Shown here: in pieces, positions 1 to 40,468 of the stretch
How the letters are laid out: every line of letters begins with the position of its first letter
Position numbering within the stretch: position 1 is the stretch's first letter
IMG/VR virus record: IMGVR_UViG_3300034073_002585
Span: 1 to 64,000 of that record
Source: a virus
Reading direction: 5' to 3' (one strand)
Length of the DNA: 64,000 nt
The notes under the pieces: generated by a model
Database searches by the model: none
Seen by the model: the letters and a program-made list of their open reading frames with translations, nothing else
What the model was told of the DNA's origin: nothing
Position numbers and translations under genes: made by a program

Positions 1-168
1 TGGGAAGTAAGGTGGGAAGTAAGGTGGGAAGTAAGGTGGGAAGTAAGGTGGGAAGTAAGGTGGGAAGTAAGGTGGGAAGTAAGGTGGGAAGTAAGGTGGG
101 AAGTAAGGTGGGAAGTAAGGTGGGAAGAAAGGAGGGAAGTAGGGCGGGAAGTATGGTGGGAAGAATGG
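1..168 (-). repeat. 12-bp tandem repeat (tgggaagtaagg): 10 perfect copies plus 4 degenerate, encoding PYFP
   Basis: Directly visible; in frame with the 798 ORF. Confidence 0.97.
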
Positions 169-798
169 AGCTACAGTAGTTACGCTATTAGTTACAGAGC
201 CTTCAGACGTTCCATTGGCGTTGACGTGATAGAGAGTATATGTCTGAGAAGAACCGCCATTTTCTGCTTCTGTCCAAGGGTTACTTGTCATCGTAACCTG
301 ACCAGGGTTGGTTACCTGGTCAGATGATACAAAATATGTGGAGGTAATTGCTTTTCCACCAGAGTTACCTTGTGACCAAGAAATGATATCCTGGTTAGCT
401 GTGGTGGAGCTTGCAGATGCATTTTGAGGAGCCTGAGGTACGGTTGTAACCGTTACAGCAGAAGCTGCAGTCGGGTCACCATCACCAGAAGCGTTTGTTA
501 GGAATACCTGAACCGTGTATTCTGTGGCAGACAGCAGCCCAGTTACAGTAACAGAATAGACGCCACTACCGTTTGGTGAAGGCAAAACGCCCGTAGAAAG
601 AACAGTATTGTCTGCTTTTTCTACTGTATAGTTTGTTGCTTCTGGAGATAGCTCATTAATTGTCCATGTGACAATCAGTGCACCATCATCGTAGGGTCTA
701 TCGGTTCCAACATCAGTAGCTGTTACATTTTCGGGCGCTAGCGGCTCTAGAAAGTCATTCTGTGAGGATGACCTTCCACCTGCTTCTTTCTTTGCCAT
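1..798 (-). CDS. FN3-domain virion protein with (Pro-Pro-Tyr-Phe)n tract; 3'-partial, runs off the window
   Basis: Not in the ORF track. ATG at 798 gives MAKKEAGGRSSSQNDFLEPLAPENVTATDVG...LIVTW...VTGLLSATEYTVQV...VPQAPQNASAS (FN3-like), ending TTVAPFFPPYFPPYFPPFF(PPYF)n. Confidence 0.85.
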   Translation of the reverse strand, partial: MAKKEAGGRSSSQNDFLEPLAPENVTATDVGTDRPYDDGALIVTWTINELSPEATNYTVEKADNTVLSTGVLPSPNGSGVYSVTVTGLLSATEYTVQVFLTNASGDGDPTAASAVTVTTVPQAPQNASASSTTANQDIISWSQGNSGGKAITSTYFVSSDQVTNPGQVTMTSNPWTEAENGGSSQTYTLYHVNANGTSEGSVTNSVTTVAPFFPPYFPPYFPPFFPPYFPPYFPPYFPPYFPPYFPPYFPPYFPPYFPPYFPPYFP

Positions 799-22541: not shown

Positions 22542-23240
22542 ATGGACGCCCCTACTAATAAAGCACTACTCTATGCACGTGTATCAACGCAGATGCAGGT
22601 GGAGGATGGAGTGTCCCTGGGTGCACAAGAAAGACAGCTGATTCAGGCAGCTGAGATGTATGGGTTCACCGAGCACGAAGTTGTGCTGGAAGAGGGACGC
22701 TCTGGGAAGAACGTGAGCGGACGACCGAAATTAATAGACGCCCTTAAGCAGTTAGATGAAGGAAAAGCAGACGCCCTTATTGTGACCAGGATTGACAGGT
22801 TGGCTAGGTCAACCAAGGACTTTCTTGACATCGTGGATAGGGCTGGCAAGAATGGGTGGAGGCTCATTATGCTGGACCTAAACCTAGACACATCTACGTA
22901 TCAGGGGAGATTTGTAGTGACAATCATGTCGGCGCTCGCTGAGATGGAGCGAGGCATTATCGCTGAGCGTGCTAAGGATATACACAAGGACCGCCGAGAG
23001 CAGGGTATAGTTTGGGGTAAAGATATGGGTCCGAGGCCTATGTACCCGCCGCAGGTTAGAGAGCAACTTTTGATTCACAGAAACAGAGGTTTATCATATC
23101 AAGCAATTGCCGACACGCTGAATGTGAACGGGGTACTTGCGCCAAGAGGCGGAACATGGTATGCTTCATCTGTACGCAACGCAATAAACGCGCTTACTAC
23201 TAAGGAAGGGGACCTCGATGGCGAGGAAGAAAAAGACTGA
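22542..23240 (+). CDS. Small serine recombinase (resolvase family) with C-terminal HTH
   Basis: YARVST, SG...RP, TRIDRLARS, LAEMER..I.ER. Confidence 0.93.
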   Translation: MDAPTNKALLYARVSTQMQVEDGVSLGAQERQLIQAAEMYGFTEHEVVLEEGRSGKNVSGRPKLIDALKQLDEGKADALIVTRIDRLARSTKDFLDIVDRAGKNGWRLIMLDLNLDTSTYQGRFVVTIMSALAEMERGIIAERAKDIHKDRREQGIVWGKDMGPRPMYPPQVREQLLIHRNRGLSYQAIADTLNVNGVLAPRGGTWYASSVRNAINALTTKEGDLDGEEEKD

Positions 23241-34232: not shown

Positions 34233-34917
34233 GTTTAGAGATGATGTAACCGTTGAACTTGTCCAATGGATGGGTGATGATGCCAGTGTAGTTAAAGCTG
34301 CACGAGTGTCTACTGGTGGTGGAACTTCTACTCCTGAAAAAGATAATGGGCTAATTAACTATTTAATGCGTGACCGCCACGGCACTCCTTTCGAGCACAA
34401 TGGCTTTACGTTCTACATCGAGGCACCTATCTTTGTTTTTCGTGAGTTCATGCGTCACAGGATTGCCTCATACAATGAGGAAAGTGGGCGCTACAAAAAA
34501 CTGGAGCCAGTATTCTATGTCCCAGATGAGAATCGTGGACTTATTCAGTCTGGCAAGCCAGGAGCCTATGAGTTCTATCAAGGCTCTCATAACCAGTGGC
34601 TAACGGTAAAGCAGGAGACAATCGAAGCTTGCAGGAAGTCATATGAAGCTTATGAGAACATGCTAGACGCGGGTATTGCTAGGGAAGTAGCTCGTGGAGT
34701 TCTCCCAGTAAATCTATACTCATCTATGTTTGTCACGATGAATGCCCGTGCTTTGATGAACTTCTTGAGCCTGAGGACTAAGCGTGATGGTACGCACTTC
34801 CCTAGTTTCCCTCAGCGAGAGATTGAGATGGTTGCGGAGAAGATGGAAGAGCTGTGGGCCAAGAAGATGCCTGTTACCTACGACTTATTCAACCAGCATG
34901 GTAGAGTAGCTCCATAA
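34219..34917 (+). CDS. thyX: Flavin-dependent thymidylate synthase
   Basis: AARVS, HGTPFEH, RHRIASYNEESGRY. Confidence 0.97.
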   Translation: MSTIKFRDDVTVELVQWMGDDASVVKAARVSTGGGTSTPEKDNGLINYLMRDRHGTPFEHNGFTFYIEAPIFVFREFMRHRIASYNEESGRYKKLEPVFYVPDENRGLIQSGKPGAYEFYQGSHNQWLTVKQETIEACRKSYEAYENMLDAGIAREVARGVLPVNLYSSMFVTMNARALMNFLSLRTKRDGTHFPSFPQREIEMVAEKMEELWAKKMPVTYDLFNQHGRVAP

Positions 34918-35681
34918 TGGATAAGAACGACTTTACACCTGAAGACATGGACCTCTTTACTCACAGCATTGCTGCTGTAATTGAGAAGCAAGAGGGAGCC
35001 TATAAAGCTATTAGTGCTTTAGTTGACGCTGCAGGGGAGTCATGGTTTGAGCTTGGTGAAAAGCTTGAGCGAAATAGGACCCTAGAAATACTTGACAGTT
35101 TTGAAGCAAAGCTAGTAGACTCTGAGGAAGATGCAAAAATGACGATTGCAATTCTTAGAAAGTTGATTTCAGATGGCGGGCAAGAAGAAGACGGAGCAGG
35201 AGAGTAAGTCTCCTAAAATAAAGCGGGTATTCAAGCCCGAACGTTGTACTAGCCACAAGTTTATTGTCGAATCTGATGGCCGCGTTGATATGGCCGCATC
35301 CCATGAAGTTACTGACGATTCAATTTGTTTTAATTGTGGACTTTACTTTTCTACTTGGACATGGTACAGTAACAAAATAAACGCAAGTTTTTGGAAGGGT
35401 GTCGACAATGAAGCTGGTCAGACGATTAATTACATCGCTCAGGACTTGGACTCAAACCTGGATAGACTTGCAAGCGATTGGGGAGCCAATCTACTCGAAA
35501 AGCTCCGAGAGAAAAGGAAGAAAAATGGAAAACGAATTCAACTATTCGACTGACCAGATGGCTGAGATTTTTGCTCGGCTAGAGGTTGCCAAGCTTCTTA
35601 TGAAGATGGGGTCAGATATGGCTAAGCAGGTCGAGACTGATATTAAGTTTTATCGAATGACCAATAATATGGGAATTGAAG

Positions 35682-35906: not shown

Positions 35907-36901
35907 TTATGGAAGACTTTATGAGAGACACTTTGGGGTCTGCGTGGGCGTACTACGTTGCGTTTGGCATCTTATTTATTTGGTGGATTGCAGAGAAAAC
36001 TAATAGAAAAAAGTAAGTTAACTATGAGATGGCAAGAAGAGTTAAACGCCAAGCGCCTTAAGACGAAGGGCTGGTATGGGTGCATCGCACCTGATGGCTG
36101 GAAGTGGATTATTGAAGATGCTGACAGGATACTGGCCAAGCTGGACCCTGAGTATGAGATTCACCAGGTCAAGGAAAAATTCGGAACGCTTCGCTATTAC
36201 TACGGAACCGTGGCTGATTGGGAAACTCAGGAGGTAATGGACGCCGTTATTGATAGAGCAGAGATGCTGTCGGCAAAGACATGCGATGTGTGCGGGAATT
36301 CGAGTGCAATGTCTAATTTGGATAGAGGGATTAAGTATGACCCTACTGCTGTACTTAAATCCACTGGTGGATGGTACAAGACTATCTGCGACAGCTGTGA
36401 TACTGAGGGTAGATACGTTAGCGTAGACGCCCTTAATGACAGAGCGCAATACGACGACCTAGAGTTTTATGCTGAGAAAGCAAGGGAGCAAGTTCAGGAG
36501 GGGCAGGATATTCTGGACGTGTTTCTAGCGATTGCAAAGAAAGACATGCTAGATGAAGATTAAGAATGGTGCTGCTCGGAACTCAATGAGCGAGTTTGAA
36601 CGCCAATGTTATGACTGGGGTTGGCGGGATGCCGAAGCTGAGGTAGTTAAGTATCTAAAGGAACGAGCTGAGGACCTTAGGGCATGCCACAAGAATGACA
36701 GTTGTTCAGATATTGCGTACGTTCTTGAGGGATGTATCGAGGATATTCAGGAAAATGTGGATACCGATTTTCAGGAAAACCTGAAAAGTGACCTGCCCGA
36801 TTATCACTGCCCGTCGTGCAGAGATATAAGTTGTATGCACTGTTTTTGCGTAGGACCTACAGCCTGTGAGTCTTGTAAAGAGTTTTCTGAAAAGGAGCTA
36901 G

Positions 36902-37081
36902 ATGAGTGACGAACTAGAAGAAGGCTACAAGCATCTTGCTAATGACCCTAAATTTGTTAGACCTAATAGAGGTAAGCACCACTGCGGATTTGACTTTGAA
37001 CTTGACAAAATGACTGCAGTATGTAAGTGTGGAGCTATAGCAACAAATCCGTTGTGGATAATCAAAGGAGAGCAGAAGTGA
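36902..37081 (+). CDS. Cassette mini-gene 1 (59 aa, ends IIKGEQK)
   Basis: MSDELEEGYKHLANDP...CKCG...WIIKGEQK; not in the ORF track. Confidence 0.7.
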   Translation: MSDELEEGYKHLANDPKFVRPNRGKHHCGFDFELDKMTAVCKCGAIATNPLWIIKGEQK

Positions 37082-37251
37082 GCAGAGAGGAACACCTAAC
37101 TGAAATGATTCGCCTTGAACAAGAGATTGTTCAGGAAAACGAGAGTCACGAATGGGCTGGCTTTGACTCAGGTTGGACAGACTGCACTTGTGGCGCAACT
37201 GTTGCCGACTTAGAGAAACACATTGAACAAATCAAAGGAGAGCAGAAGTGA
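37078..37251 (+). CDS. Cassette mini-gene 2 (57 aa, ends QIKGEQK)
   Basis: GTG start inside the repeat, AAGGAG SD. Confidence 0.7.
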   Translation: MSREEHLTEMIRLEQEIVQENESHEWAGFDSGWTDCTCGATVADLEKHIEQIKGEQK

Positions 37252-37391
37252 AACTTCACTATCACAAGCAACGCTGGCTGAAGTCCCAACGCAAAAAGCA
37301 AATCCTTAGCCTGTTCATTCCAATTGGTGGCGGCATTGGTCTAGTGGTATTAGGGCACGAAATCGCACTAATCAAAGGAGAGCAGAAGTGA
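37248..37391 (+). CDS. Cassette mini-gene 3 (47 aa, hydrophobic segment, ends IALIKGEQK)
   Basis: MKLHYHKQRWLKSQRKKQILSLFIPIGGGIGLVVLGHEIALIKGEQK; not in the ORF track. Confidence 0.7.
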   Translation: MKLHYHKQRWLKSQRKKQILSLFIPIGGGIGLVVLGHEIALIKGEQK

Positions 37392-37588
37392 CTGGCTCAG
37401 GAGCGAGGGCAAGGCAAAAGGCTAAGCGTGAAGCATGGCTAAAAAACATGCCATACCCTGGATTCACCTGCAAGGTTTGCAAACATGAGGACATGATGCA
37501 CTTTATGTGGGCAGGTTATTGCATTTTAGAAAACTGTGATTGCAAGAGTATGGATGGCATCGCACTAATCAAAGGAGAGCAGAAGTGA
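37388..37588 (+). CDS. Cassette mini-gene 4 (66 aa, Zn-finger-like, ends IALIKGEQK)
   Basis: CKVCKH...H...C...CDC. Confidence 0.7.
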   Translation: MTGSGARARQKAKREAWLKNMPYPGFTCKVCKHEDMMHFMWAGYCILENCDCKSMDGIALIKGEQK

Positions 37589-37734
37589 ATCCAGAAGACA
37601 TTGCAAAAATGATTGACGCAGTTGCTGCATATGGCGAACTGCTTGGCGGTATGAAAAAGAAGTTTATTGCAGAGGGATTCTCTGAGGAGACGGCAGAAGC
37701 TTTGGTTGTAGAGATTCTAAGGAAGATGAGCTAA
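37585..37734 (+). CDS. Small protein starting from the last junction repeat
   Basis: MNPEDIAKMID...GFSEETAEALV. Confidence 0.7.
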   Translation: MNPEDIAKMIDAVAAYGELLGGMKKKFIAEGFSEETAEALVVEILRKMS

Positions 37735-40468
37735 TGAGTTTTGAAAGATTTGCTAGCTCTGACATTTACATCTATGAGCATGTAGGCGGGTTTATCGAGT
37801 GCTGTGGATGCTCGATGGCTTTGCCAGATGATTTGGATATGTTTGGATTTGCCCACCTGAAAACTCCGCGTGAGGCGTTGGCGCACTTGGATTTGCATGA
37901 GGAGCGAGGCGACGACATCGGTGGAGCTAGGCGTAGAATTGAAAAAGAGTACGAAGATTTAGACGCGCCTATTGAACCTTACGTAAGGTCAGAGGAAGAT
38001 GAAGCTAGAATTAGAGCGATAATGAAGGATAGGTGGAATGCCAGAGAAGAAGACTCACACGGTTAAAGAGGTAGATAGGCTTACCGCTGAAAGTGTTATT
38101 GAGGGTTTTTGTATTGCATATGATGCGATGGATAAAACTCTTGACCAGATGATGCGTGGCATTAGTGAGACCATGAGCATCTACATGAGGGAAGACCTAA
38201 ACAGGTATAAGGACAAGGTCGATGAGCTACACCTTATGTATACGGTTTTGCAGGCAGTAGCTGAAAAGTATGAGGGAATCCACTACGAGAAGCTTCAGCA
38301 GTTGAAGTCGGACTTGAACATTGATGATAATTAAGACTGCTACTGGTTCTTGTTATGAAATTGATGAGCGTGGTATCTGCCGCAAGTTCGACAGTGAGGG
38401 CCGTGGAATAGACGCCTTTAAAGCTTTAATGATAAAAGGTGTGCCTAAAGATGTACAAACTTTTGCTGGAGCAATAGAAGCGCCGTTTTGTGAACCAGAA
38501 GTTGGTATGAGATTGTATGCAGCTGGTATTGATGGTTGGTGGTTGAGTACTGAGATTGTAGAGATTCTATCCGAAGAAGCCTGGCCACCACGTCGATTTA
38601 GAGATGCGAGCAACGGCGAATGATGTGGGCCATTTACTCTGGTGAAACTCCCTTTATATTGGGAGAAAATCTGCAAGACTTAACTCGTACTTGTGACGAG
38701 TTAAATAGTAAACTAGACTTTGAATTCACCATAAAAGAATGGATTGTGAATGGCTGATTGGGAACTAGACCCTGAGGATTACATAACTCTTCGTGATGAA
38801 GTCATTGAAGAATATGAAATTGACTGGTCAAATGGCATCAGTAATGATGAGATGACCCAAGAAGACTTTGACCGTCTATCAGAACTCCACGATAAAAAGC
38901 TAGTTTGGACTGAGCATGGGACCTGCGAGGACAACTGGCTAGCTGCTGGATTTACCCAGTATGGAGAATGCGAGCTGCTTGGGCACGAGTCGAGTGGTTG
39001 TGGTTGTTGGCAGTCTTACTCTTACTATGTGGCAAAGAAACCTTGGGTAAATGAAAATGAGCACGTACTTGTAACTGCAACGTTGCCTTGCTCTGTCTGC
39101 AATCCTGACGGAGACGGTGATGGCGTTGAAGGATGTGAAGGTCCAGAGGTGCCTGAGGGTGCAGATAGGTCCGAATGTTCATTCGGCACTATTAATTGGT
39201 ATTTCGACTAGGATAAACTAAGTACCGTTGTTTAGGAGGAACATGAAAATTATAGTTAATAAGTGTAACCACGGGTTCACTTTGTCTGAAGCTCAGAAGG
39301 AGCTGTTCCCAGACGGATATGTTGACAGAACAGACCCTCGCCTAATTGCTTCATTTGAAGCGGGAGATAATCGTGGAGATGGTGGTTCTACCTTAGTTTT
39401 AATGGAAATCCCTGATGAAGCTGATGGCTACCACATTGTAGAGAACGATGGAATAGAAACTCTCTACTGGATGTCTGGGTCTACCTTAACTGAAGTTGGT
39501 TAGACTTAGCTATGTCAGTTGAAGCTGTAGGAGAAACTTCCTGGGTAGATGACTACGGTCACATCATTGTAAATGTGCATAAGCGCAATCAGTGTAAGAA
39601 TGACTACTGCACAATTCACAATCAATCTAAACACCACATGGTTGAGTTCCCTCAGCGGTGGCGTCAAGATAAGCATATGATGGAACGAATTTGTCCACAC
39701 GGTGTGGGTCACCCTGACCCAGATGAGATATCATTGGACACGGTCCATGGGTGTGATGGGTGTTGTTCAGATGAGTTATGACGACGGATACGAGACTATA
39801 GAAATATCTGAAGAAGATATGTCTGAGGCTCAGAAGCTTATAGTAGAAGGCTTTATTCGTGAAGGTGAGTTCAAGACTAGAGCTGCTTTAATTAATATGC
39901 TAATCAAAGACATAGATTCTTATCTAGATGAAGTTGACTATGAACCTAATCTAGACTGGGTAAACGGTGTTCGTTATGCCATCCACATAATAAGAGAGGC
40001 CAAGCTTAATGGACTCGCAGGAGACTGAAAGATTTTTATATAGGTTTGAATATTATGAACCTGAAGATAACCGTACGTATGTAGACTGGATTTGGCTAAC
40101 TCATGAAGAGCTTAAAGACCATAAATCTAGCTACAATGAAGTAAAAATTCGTTTAGCCACAGAAGACGAGTCAGACCTCTATAACGAAGCCTATGCAGAC
40201 GGCTATGGTATAGCTGCAATGATGGAGTTTGAGTCTCAATACGACGGAATTACTTTCAGGGTTGAGTTGGGTAAAGATGGTCAACTCGACATGAATGGTA
40301 AAAAGATGTTTGAGTGCGCCATCTGTGAGAAGCATAAAGACTTTGAAACTGAAGTAGGAACTGCTGCTGGTCTATATTTGGGTGAAGTAAAGAATGACAA
40401 ATTGTGGCATGTGTGCTACGACTGTGCAGAAAACGCCGCTATGTTAAGGGCAATAGAGGATTCCATAG

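What the first reader, a model, noticed from the sequence alone, without database searches (positions are those of the whole stretch)
36902..37734. Mini-gene cassette array joined by an identical SD-stop-start junction
Seen: four exact copies of AATCAAAGGAGAGCAGAAGTGA at periods of 170, 140 and 197 bp, with unrelated coding sequence between them. Each copy encodes the C-terminus IKGEQK, a Shine-Dalgarno (AAGGAG) and an overlapping GTGA start/stop, so any cassette placed between two copies is automatically translated and coupled. Two of the genes are missing from the ORF track. Inference: short-homology or site-specific recombination at the junction adds, deletes and shuffles small effector genes, like an integron without an adjacent integrase. 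The shared tail could also be a protein tag.
Basis: partly seen in the sequence, partly recalled or inferred. Interest (0 to 1): 0.82.

Follow-up and report, generated by a model that had tools for sequence, protein, structure and literature searches.

The report
Shuffled phage mini-genes, shared junction
Four unrelated tiny genes of an uncultured 154-kb phage are joined by the same 22-letter gene end, which carries the ribosome-binding site and start of the next gene; the same mini-genes occur in other orders in related phages, so the junction probably lets them be swapped without losing expression.

Summary
There are four exact copies of AATCAAAGGAGAGCAGAAGTGA at window 37060, 37230, 37370 and 37567, and none elsewhere in the 154-kb genome.

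The 22-mer is not private to this phage. It is the 3' end of an undescribed family of small phage proteins (helix ERERIIKLLE ... C-terminus IALIKGE[Q/N]K). The K-G-E codons of that tail are the Shine-Dalgarno site of the next gene, and its stop overlaps that gene's start.

The peptide recurs in more than 120 viral contigs with free synonymous variation, except at the Gly codon, which is GGA in 114 of 122 (the GGAG core). The window's four identical copies are therefore copies by descent, not convergence.

The four gene bodies (A-D) resemble neither each other nor that family. Each recurs in other contigs with different neighbours and orders (D then B, B before A, C alone), and similarity stops at the flanking junctions. 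The locus holds 0, 5 or about 12 genes in relatives.

Best reading: a translational-coupling junction that doubles as a short-homology patch for cassette shuffling, like T4 PeSLs but at the translation level. Recombination at the junction is inferred, not shown.

An integron-like site-specific mechanism is not supported. A tag function for the tail is untested.

The parts
35958..36563 (+). 201-aa gene, the conserved left flank of the variable locus
   Evidence: 83% nt identity to L032 5998-6530. In L032 it is followed directly by the gene E homologue.
36553..36909 (+). 118-aa Cys-rich ORF, the first gene of the segment that L032 lacks. It joins gene A through a different SD/ATGAGTGA overlap, not the 22-mer.
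   Evidence: Its C-terminal 37 aa recur in L049/L130, and a 66-aa relative sits inside the L189 array.
36902..37081 (+). Cassette A, 59 aa (HHCGFDF...CKCG...TNP body plus the IIKGEQK tail)
   Evidence: Homologues occur in L028, L084, L020 (a longer protein), L023 (no tail), L164, L209, L210 and L221.
37060..37081 (+). Junction copy 1: tail codons, SD AAAGGAG, 7-nt spacer, GTGA stop/start overlap
37078..37251 (+). Cassette B, 57 aa, GTG start inside junction 1
   Evidence: About 90% nt identity to L016 and L026 from junction to junction, and random outside both. Also found in L189 (twice), L209, L221, L247 and L253.
37230..37251 (+). Junction copy 2
37248..37391 (+). Cassette C, 47 aa, with a hydrophobic stretch that may span the membrane (read by eye, no prediction run)
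   Evidence: 94% nt identity to L216 403-564, which runs exactly from junction to junction. The L107 orthologue carries another tail allele.
37370..37391 (+). Junction copy 3 (30-nt identity with copy 4 from 37362)
37388..37588 (+). Cassette D, 66 aa, Cys-rich
   Evidence: 88-98% aa identity in L266, L189, L193, L178 and L063, each with different neighbours. In L063 the body is 83% nt identical but the tail only 63%.
37567..37588 (+). Junction copy 4 (30-nt identity with copy 3 from 37559)
37585..37734 (+). Gene E, 49 aa, GTG start inside junction 4. It is the first gene of the conserved right flank.
   Evidence: The same gene with the same GTG start follows four different upstream contexts, in the window, L023, L032 and L033-36.
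37734..38066 (+). 110-aa gene, conserved right flank
   Evidence: 74% aa identity in L033-L036, with synteny to gene E.
34917..35207 (+). 96-aa distant relative of the ERERIIKLLE/ALIKGE family, without the junction motif
   Evidence: hmmsearch gives E 1.7e-4 with the full profile and 0.014 with the tail removed.

Best explanation
The 22-mer is a dual-coded gene end. Read as protein, it is the last seven codons (IKGEQK, usually preceded by IAL) of a widespread, undescribed family of small phage proteins. Read as mRNA, its K-G-E codons AAA-GGA-G are the Shine-Dalgarno site of the next gene, followed by a 7-nt A-rich spacer and a GTG start that overlaps the TGA stop. A ribosome that finishes one mini-gene therefore initiates the next one (translational coupling). 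This part is read from the sequence and from the Gly-codon bias; no experiment shows it. Many genes in these phages end in the same 22-30 letters. The junction therefore also offers a patch of identity where homologous or short-homology recombination, between co-infecting phages or between copies within one genome, can insert, delete, swap or reorder mini-genes while leaving every gene with an intact ribosome site, start and stop. That recombination step is inferred from comparative anatomy. In this phage, four unrelated mini-genes carrying one identical nucleotide version of the junction sit in a locus whose gene content differs between relatives.
For: (1) Four exact copies lie within 530 bp, and the genome holds no others.

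(2) The tail belongs to a protein family. A profile built without the tail found 105 cluster representatives among 1.84 billion proteins, and most of them end in LIKGE[N/Q]K-like tails.

(3) The tail doubles as SD. Among 122 distinct contexts encoding [L/F]IKGExK*, wobble sites vary freely (Ile ATC 84/ATT 26/ATA 12; Lys AAG 66/AAA 56; Glu GAG 81/GAA 41; last Lys AAG 67/AAA 55, which gives GTG or ATG starts). Gly is GGA in 114 of 122, against 22% GGA in long ORFs of the same contigs. The L107 orthologue of C has lost the stop/start overlap but keeps the SD at the same 7-nt distance from a TTG start.

(4) The copies are identical by descent. The window's version is a minor allele among many synonymous ones, yet all four copies share it.

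(5) The cassette bodies are unrelated to each other and to the family.

(6) The cassettes are shuffled. B, C and D match other contigs at 86-94% nt exactly from junction to junction. The orders differ: D-B in L189, A-B in L209, B..A in L221, and C alone in L216.

(7) The locus is hyperplastic. Between the same flanks there are 0 genes in L032, 5 in the window and about 12 in L023.

(8) Tails are decoupled from bodies. For A against L028, the body is 52% nt identical and the tail 85%. For D against L063, the body is 83% and the tail 63%. A in L023 has no tail.

(9) In a second phage lineage, 13 of 40 junctions in the variable segment carry the motif, against 1 of 164 elsewhere in the same loci (Fisher p 1e-9).

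(10) The junction RNA is no more structured than shuffled sequence, so the site should be accessible.

(11) The phage encodes an AAA_24 (Sak4-type) protein, a candidate recombination protein. That Sak4-type proteins act in phage recombination is from my own knowledge.
Against: No recombination event has been observed. Breakpoints at gene ends are expected in any viable mosaic phage. Among closely related pairs, most replacement boundaries lie at gene junctions without the motif, roughly 7 of 46 boundaries touching it. Where one tailed gene replaces another, a crossover inside the tail cannot be told from one just beside it. The left edge of the window's extra segment (the end of the 201-aa gene) has no motif. 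The greater similarity of tails within a locus than between loci is confounded by lineage. Translational coupling itself is inferred from sequence only. Most loci were collected through the motif or its peptide, so counts of motif-bounded cassettes are biased upward.
Confidence: 0.6

Rival explanations
1. The junction is only a translation signal. It is an optimised coupling site kept by selection, and the cassette turnover arises from ordinary illegitimate recombination filtered to gene boundaries. The junction then plays no part in recombination.
For: The SD core is under nucleotide constraint. Most mosaic boundaries between close relatives lie at junctions without the motif. The left edge of the window's insertion has no motif.
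Against: Selection for SD plus start does not explain 22-30-nt identity, spacer and upstream codons included, on four unrelated genes when many synonymous versions work elsewhere. It does not explain tails that match the local genome rather than the orthologue. It also does not explain the 13/40 against 1/164 concentration in the variable segment.
Confidence: 0.22
2. The shared tail (IA)LIKGE(Q/N)K is a functional peptide tag, such as a degron, docking or oligomerisation motif. The mini-genes carry it because they need it, and the nucleotide conservation is secondary.
For: The peptide is conserved through synonymous change and across 50%-identity cluster representatives found without using the tail. 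The C orthologue in L107 keeps HEIALIKGE with different codons. In the model of the family, IALI ends a short C-terminal helix.
Against: K-G-E, the A-rich codon and the final Lys are what an in-frame SD, spacer and start would encode in any case. Orthologues do without the tail: A in L023 has none, and D in L063 ends in LIKKDTK. The model leaves KGEQK without helix or strand. The window's A-D lack the ERERIIKLLE helix that accompanies the tail in the family.
Confidence: 0.1
3. An integron-like or other site-specific system: a dedicated recombinase, for example the serine recombinase at 22542, acts on the 22-mer.
For: Direct repeats flank promoterless cassettes in one orientation, and a small serine recombinase lies 14 kb upstream.
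Against: The genome has no tyrosine integrase. The recombinase has no homologue in 6 of 6 near-complete genomes retrieved through this motif or its family, five of which carry the junction. It occurs only in two relatives found through the flanking 110-aa gene. The repeat has no dyad symmetry and no attC-like fold. It lies inside coding sequence.
Confidence: 0.04
4. The array is a set of tandem duplicates of one ancestral gene that diverged everywhere except at the 3' end.
For: In relatives, many tail-bearing genes are true paralogues of one family and do stand in tandem (L025, L084, L186). A and B share a faint GFD...CxCG stretch (hhalign probability 9%).
Against: A-D show no significant similarity to each other or to the family once the tail is removed. 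Each has its own orthologues elsewhere in different company.
Confidence: 0.04

Closest known systems
PeSL regulatory cassettes of T4-type phages (Arbiol et al. 2010, PMC2839356; Comeau et al. 2014, PMC4122927)
   Same: A short conserved expression signal recurs between small ORFan genes in hyperplastic regions. Relatives differ by insertion, deletion and replacement of the genes flanked by the signal. The signal is proposed as the homology patch for shuffling and gives each moved gene its expression signals.
   Different: PeSLs are intergenic elements of about 100 bp (early promoter plus terminator stem-loop) that act on transcription, and mini-circles were shown by experiment. Here the element is 22-30 nt, lies inside the upstream coding sequence, acts on translation (SD plus stop/start overlap) and encodes a peptide tail. 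No recombination product has been seen.
Start-associated sequences (SAS) of Cluster K mycobacteriophages (Pope et al. 2011, PMC3203893)
   Same: An asymmetric conserved repeat containing AGGAG sits a few bases before start codons of non-structural genes of different families. It is conserved beyond what rRNA pairing needs, and its function is unproven.
   Different: SAS is 13 bp, occurs in 11-19 copies spread over the right half of the genome, is mostly associated with ATG starts and is often paired with inverted repeats (ESAS). Here there are 0-5 copies per complete or near-complete genome checked and up to about 8 in partial contigs, clustered in one locus. The motif is in frame with the upstream gene as a conserved peptide, overlaps its stop, and is tied to cassette turnover.
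Integron gene cassettes (attC/attI with IntI)
   Same: Promoterless small genes in one orientation, bounded by a recurring site, with variable content and order.
   Different: There is no integrase, no attC hairpin, no attI or Pc, and the repeat is coding sequence. See the membership test.
Ordinary translational coupling by overlapping stop/start (ATGA or GTGA) with an SD inside the upstream gene
   Same: The same anatomy at each single junction.
   Different: Ordinary coupled junctions are not identical over 22-30 nt between unrelated genes. They also do not recur as one conserved peptide tail across hundreds of phage contigs.

Membership tests
Integron | Adjacent tyrosine-recombinase integrase (IntI) | tested here: not met
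   PF00589 has no match in the complete 154-kb genome, while the control genomes all match.
Integron | attC site: imperfect inverted repeats that fold into a hairpin | tested here: not met
   The 22-mer has no dyad. The 102-nt stretches around each copy fold no better than shuffles, with z of +0.47, +1.37, +0.95 and -0.38.
Integron | Cassettes of variable content and order bounded by the site | tested here: met
PeSL-type modular shuffling (T4-type phages) | A conserved expression motif flanks ORFans in a region whose content differs between relatives | tested here: met
   The same flanks enclose 0, 5 or about 12 genes. In a second lineage 13/40 against 1/164 junctions carry the motif.
PeSL-type modular shuffling (T4-type phages) | The motif consists of a sigma-70-type early promoter plus a terminator stem-loop | tested here: not met
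   No excess of promoter-like or terminator-like sites in 32-44 kb, and no stem-loop at the junction.
PeSL-type modular shuffling (T4-type phages) | Recombination products between motif copies (mini-circles, deletions) can be detected | not testable with these tools
   This needs reads or PCR on phage DNA.
Start-associated sequences (Cluster K) | The 13-bp consensus GGGATAGGAGCCC | tested here: not met
   The motif here is AATCAAAGGAGAGCAGAAGTGA and shares only GGAG with it (PMC3203893).
Start-associated sequences (Cluster K) | Many copies dispersed over the non-structural half of the genome | tested here: not met
   The four copies lie within 530 bp and the genome has no others. Eight other large (80-100% complete) genomes have 0-5 copies.
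ERERIIKLLE/ALIKGE small-protein family (undescribed, defined here) | N-terminal helix with G...ERERIIKLLE | tested here: not met
   Bodies A-D give hmmsearch E above 1 and hhalign probability below 1% against the tail-less profile. Only the ORF at 34917-35207 matches, and weakly.
ERERIIKLLE/ALIKGE small-protein family (undescribed, defined here) | C-terminal (IA)LIKGE(Q/N)K | tested here: met
   All four cassettes end in IKGEQK, and C and D end in IALIKGEQK.

The most novel reading that the evidence does not exclude
The junction is a true portable 'plug'. It is a unit of about 30 nt that gives any mini-gene a shared functional C-terminal peptide (tag or degron), a ribosome site for its neighbour, and a recombination handle, all at once. 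It would define a cassette system specific to these phages, working at the level of translation. Such a system would have no described counterpart and would be maintained by selection for evolvability of the host-takeover gene set.
Probability: 0.15. Interest if true: 0.85.

Novelty: new variant of a known kind. Interest (0 to 1): 0.62.

Why it matters
Phage genomes are full of tiny orphan genes that come and go, and how they move without breaking expression is known only for a few model groups (T4 PeSLs). This locus suggests another route in a large group of uncultured aquatic phages. A coding gene end that is also the neighbour's ribosome site is reused as the seam between cassettes, so every reshuffled gene stays translated. 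It also brings to light an undescribed, widespread family of small phage proteins. It gives a clear natural case of one short sequence constrained both as peptide and as ribosome-binding site. The recombination claim can be tested directly with reads or PCR, and the coupling claim with simple reporters.

Tried and rejected
- Megablast of the region, and tblastn of a family member, against GenBank phages gave no match.
- Pfam and PHROGs searches of A-E, the flanking genes and family members gave nothing above threshold.
- A full-text literature search for the tail and helix peptides found nothing relevant.
- A genome-wide SAS-like signal was rejected, because the genome has only four copies and they are clustered.
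- Promoter or terminator units around the cassettes were rejected.
- A conserved RNA or attC-like structure was rejected.
- An integron integrase was rejected. RecT and RecA are absent from the genome.
- The serine recombinase as partner was rejected.
- Tandem duplicates were rejected for this array.
- The search for related loci with the tail-less family alignment confirmed only 7 loci, because confirmation uses the first sequence alone.
- Several long contigs stop within 60 nt of the motif, which might indicate assembly branching at the arrays. Over all whole contigs this is not clearly above chance by a rough hand estimate, and I did not test it rigorously.
- The within-locus against between-locus tail similarity is significant but confounded by lineage, so I do not lean on it.
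I re-ran it from coordinates.
- I did not test the host. The label 'actinobacterial phage' comes only from earlier notes of this scan.

Full report
**What is there**

The window is the first 64 kb of a complete IMG/VR virus record of 154,192 bp with direct terminal repeats. The 22-mer AATCAAAGGAGAGCAGAAGTGA occurs four times on the + strand, at 37060, 37230, 37370 and 37567. Shuffles give 0.01 expected matches. The whole genome has no further copy even at five mismatches. Copies 3 and 4 are identical over 30 nt.

Each copy ends an ORF in ...IKGEQK*. Each contains AAAGGAG, then a 7-nt spacer, then a GTG that overlaps the TGA stop. This gives a chain of five small genes:
- A, 36902-37081, 59 aa
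- B, 37078-37251, 57 aa
- C, 37248-37391, 47 aa, with a hydrophobic stretch that looks membrane-spanning by eye
- D, 37388-37588, 66 aa, Cys-rich
- E, 37585-37734, 49 aa

The chain lies inside a long + strand operon with no excess of promoter-like or terminator-like sites. The RNA around the junctions folds no better than shuffled sequence, with z of +0.47, +1.37, +0.95 and -0.38. That fits an open ribosome-binding site. It does not fit a hairpin recombination site.

**Where the repeat comes from**

In most of the IMG/VR loci it is the 3' end of one family of small proteins. These carry a conserved G...ERERIIKLLE helix, a variable and often Cys-rich middle, and the C-terminus (I)ALIKGEQK.

I built a profile without the tail (A1) and searched 1.84 billion cluster representatives. 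It found 105 proteins, and most of them end in LIKGENK, LIKGEQK, LIKGEK or close variants. The tail is therefore a hallmark of the family and not an invention of this array.

The family has no Pfam or PHROG model and no relative in GenBank phages. I found no mention of it in the searchable literature. An AlphaFold model (mean pLDDT 78) shows a long N-terminal helix and a short C-terminal helix over the residues just before the KGEQK tail. The last five residues, KGEQK, have neither helix nor strand.

**One sequence, two readings**

I scanned IMG/VR for any DNA encoding [L/F]-I-K-G-E-[Q/N/K/H]-K-stop. Synonymous sites vary freely:
- Ile: ATC 84, ATT 26, ATA 12
- first Lys: AAG 66, AAA 56
- Glu: GAG 81, GAA 41
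- last Lys: AAG 67, AAA 55, which switches the next gene's start between GTG and ATG

The Gly codon is the exception. It is GGA in 114 of 122, against 22% GGA among Gly codons in long ORFs of the same contigs. GGA-G is the GGAG core of the Shine-Dalgarno site.

In the L107 orthologue of cassette C the stop/start overlap is gone. The GGGAGAG nevertheless still sits 7 nt before a TTG start.

My conclusion is that K-G-E, the A-rich codon and the final Lys are what an in-frame SD, spacer and start encode. The preceding IALI belongs to the family's C-terminal helix. That the junction actually couples translation is inferred from this anatomy and is not shown.

**Identity by descent**

The commonest version in the databases is CTT ATC AAG GGA GAG AAC AAG TGA (LIKGENK). 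The window's version, CTA ATC AAA GGA GAG CAG AAG TGA, is a minor one. Four unrelated genes sharing this one version over 22-30 nt cannot be convergence on a peptide or on an SD. The copies must share recent ancestry through copying, recombination or gene conversion.

**The cassettes are unrelated and mobile**

With tails removed, A-D show no significant similarity to each other. BLASTP finds nothing, and the best hhalign probability is 9%, for A against B. Their hhalign probability against the family is below 1%, and hmmsearch gives E above 1.

Each cassette has its own homologues elsewhere, in different company:
- B is about 90% nt identical to L016 and L026 from the left junction to the right junction, and random beyond both.
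- C matches L216 at 94% over exactly 37230-37391.
- D matches L266 at 94% over 37371-37588.

Cassette orders differ between contigs:

| Contig | Order |
|---|---|
| Window | A-B-C-D-E |
| L189 | family gene, family gene, D, B, a relative of the 118-aa gene, x, B again, family gene |
| L209 | A-B |
| L221 | B-x-A |
| L216 | x-C-family gene |
| L266 | family gene-D-family gene |

Nearly all these joints carry the motif with 0-4 mismatches.

Between the conserved 201-aa gene and gene E, L032 has no gene, the window has five and L023 has about twelve. L033-36 have about five unrelated genes before gene E but lack the 201-aa gene. Gene E keeps the same GTG start behind four different upstream contexts.

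In a second phage lineage, 13 of 40 junctions in the variable segment carry the motif, against 1 of 164 elsewhere in the same loci (Fisher p 1e-9). Eighteen gene clusters occupy that segment across seven loci, and only two of them are common.

**Tails move independently of bodies**

- A against its L028 homologue: body 52% nt identical, last 27 nt 85%.
- D against L063: body 83%, tail 63%. The tail there reads LIKKDTK and has no SD.
- A in L023 has no tail. A in L020 is the N-terminal part of a 131-aa protein that ends in LIEGDQK.
- In L084 the A-type gene carries the GENK version, like its neighbours.

Tails are more alike within a locus than between loci, at 1.70 against 2.94 differences (permutation p below 0.0005). 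That contrast is confounded by lineage.

**How it most likely works**

The junction couples translation of successive mini-genes. This is read from the sequence and supported by the codon bias. Because many genes end in the same 22-30 letters, it also offers a patch of identity at which mini-genes can be exchanged, deleted or reordered with every gene keeping its SD, start and stop. This second part is inferred.

The genome has a candidate recombination protein of the AAA_24 (Sak4) type at 118911-119546, and no RecT or RecA.

This closely parallels the PeSL model for T4-type phages, where promoter/terminator cassettes flank ORFans in hyperplastic regions and recombine to give mini-circles (PMC2839356). 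There the signal is intergenic and transcriptional. Here it is coding and translational.

It also resembles the start-associated sequences of Cluster K mycobacteriophages, in being a conserved RBS-containing repeat of unproven function (PMC3203893). It differs from them in copy number, dispersion, reading-frame coupling and its link to gene turnover.

**Limits**

- No recombinant molecule has been seen.
- Between close relatives, most replacement boundaries lie at gene junctions without the motif, with roughly 7 of 46 boundaries touching one. The motif is at best a preferred seam, not the only one.
- The left edge of the window's extra segment has no motif.
- Most loci were collected through the motif or its peptide.

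**Rejected readings**

- Site-specific, integron-like recombination is not supported. The genome has no tyrosine integrase and the junction has no dyad or fold.
- I searched 18 large records for the serine recombinase at 22542. Six of them are at least 90% complete and were reached through the motif (five) or through the tail-less family profile (one). None of the six has a homologue. Only two relatives found through the flanking 110-aa gene have one.
- A tag function for the tail is possible but unsupported. The peptide is conserved, yet its conserved letters are largely those the SD dictates, and orthologues do without it.

**Verdict**

The 'cassette array' reading is largely right, and the 'integron' mechanism is not. 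I class it as a new variant of a known kind, namely shuffling of phage ORFans mediated by a regulatory motif.

Earlier notes of this scan call the phage actinobacterial. I did not test that. The scan had noted this same stretch once before, on this same genome, and not on other DNA.

Noticed in passing
window 1-170: A 12-nt tandem repeat, TGGGAAGTAAGG, in about 14 copies. It encodes (PYFP)n on the minus strand, inside the ORF that runs off the window start.
   Followed up: no
window 34917-35207 (+): A 96-aa ORF that is a distant relative of the ERERIIKLLE/ALIKGE family (GEKLERNRTLEILD ... TIAILRKL). It lacks the junction motif and is conserved in L023 and L032-36.
   Followed up: partly
G000:C1:118911-119546 (+), outside the window: An AAA_24 (Sak4-type) protein scoring 64.8 bits, a candidate phage recombination protein. 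RecT, RecA and tyrosine integrase are absent from the genome.
   Followed up: partly
L084 1-930 (IMG/VR contig of 93,561 bp): Another array: five junction copies within 850 bp at the very start of the contig. It mixes two family genes, an A-type 37-aa gene and an unrelated 77-aa gene, and is followed by longer ORFs of 105 aa and 208 aa that I did not identify.
   Followed up: partly
L162, L193, L225, L233; L101: Several long contigs stop within 60 nt of the junction motif. This may reflect assembly-graph branching caused by cassette variants in the population. Over all whole contigs it is not clearly above chance by a rough hand estimate.
   Followed up: no
window 12227, 14197, 22535, 23177: Four copies of a 23-nt repeat resembling CAAACTAATAAACGCCCCTACTG (family D6). 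One copy lies just before the serine recombinase gene.
   Followed up: no
L032 6505-6545: In the nearest relative, the 201-aa gene ends in ILGEENK* with an ATGA overlap onto gene E (GGAGAAGAGAATAAATGA). This looks like a degenerate version of the junction, possibly the scar of a deletion of the whole array.
   Followed up: partly
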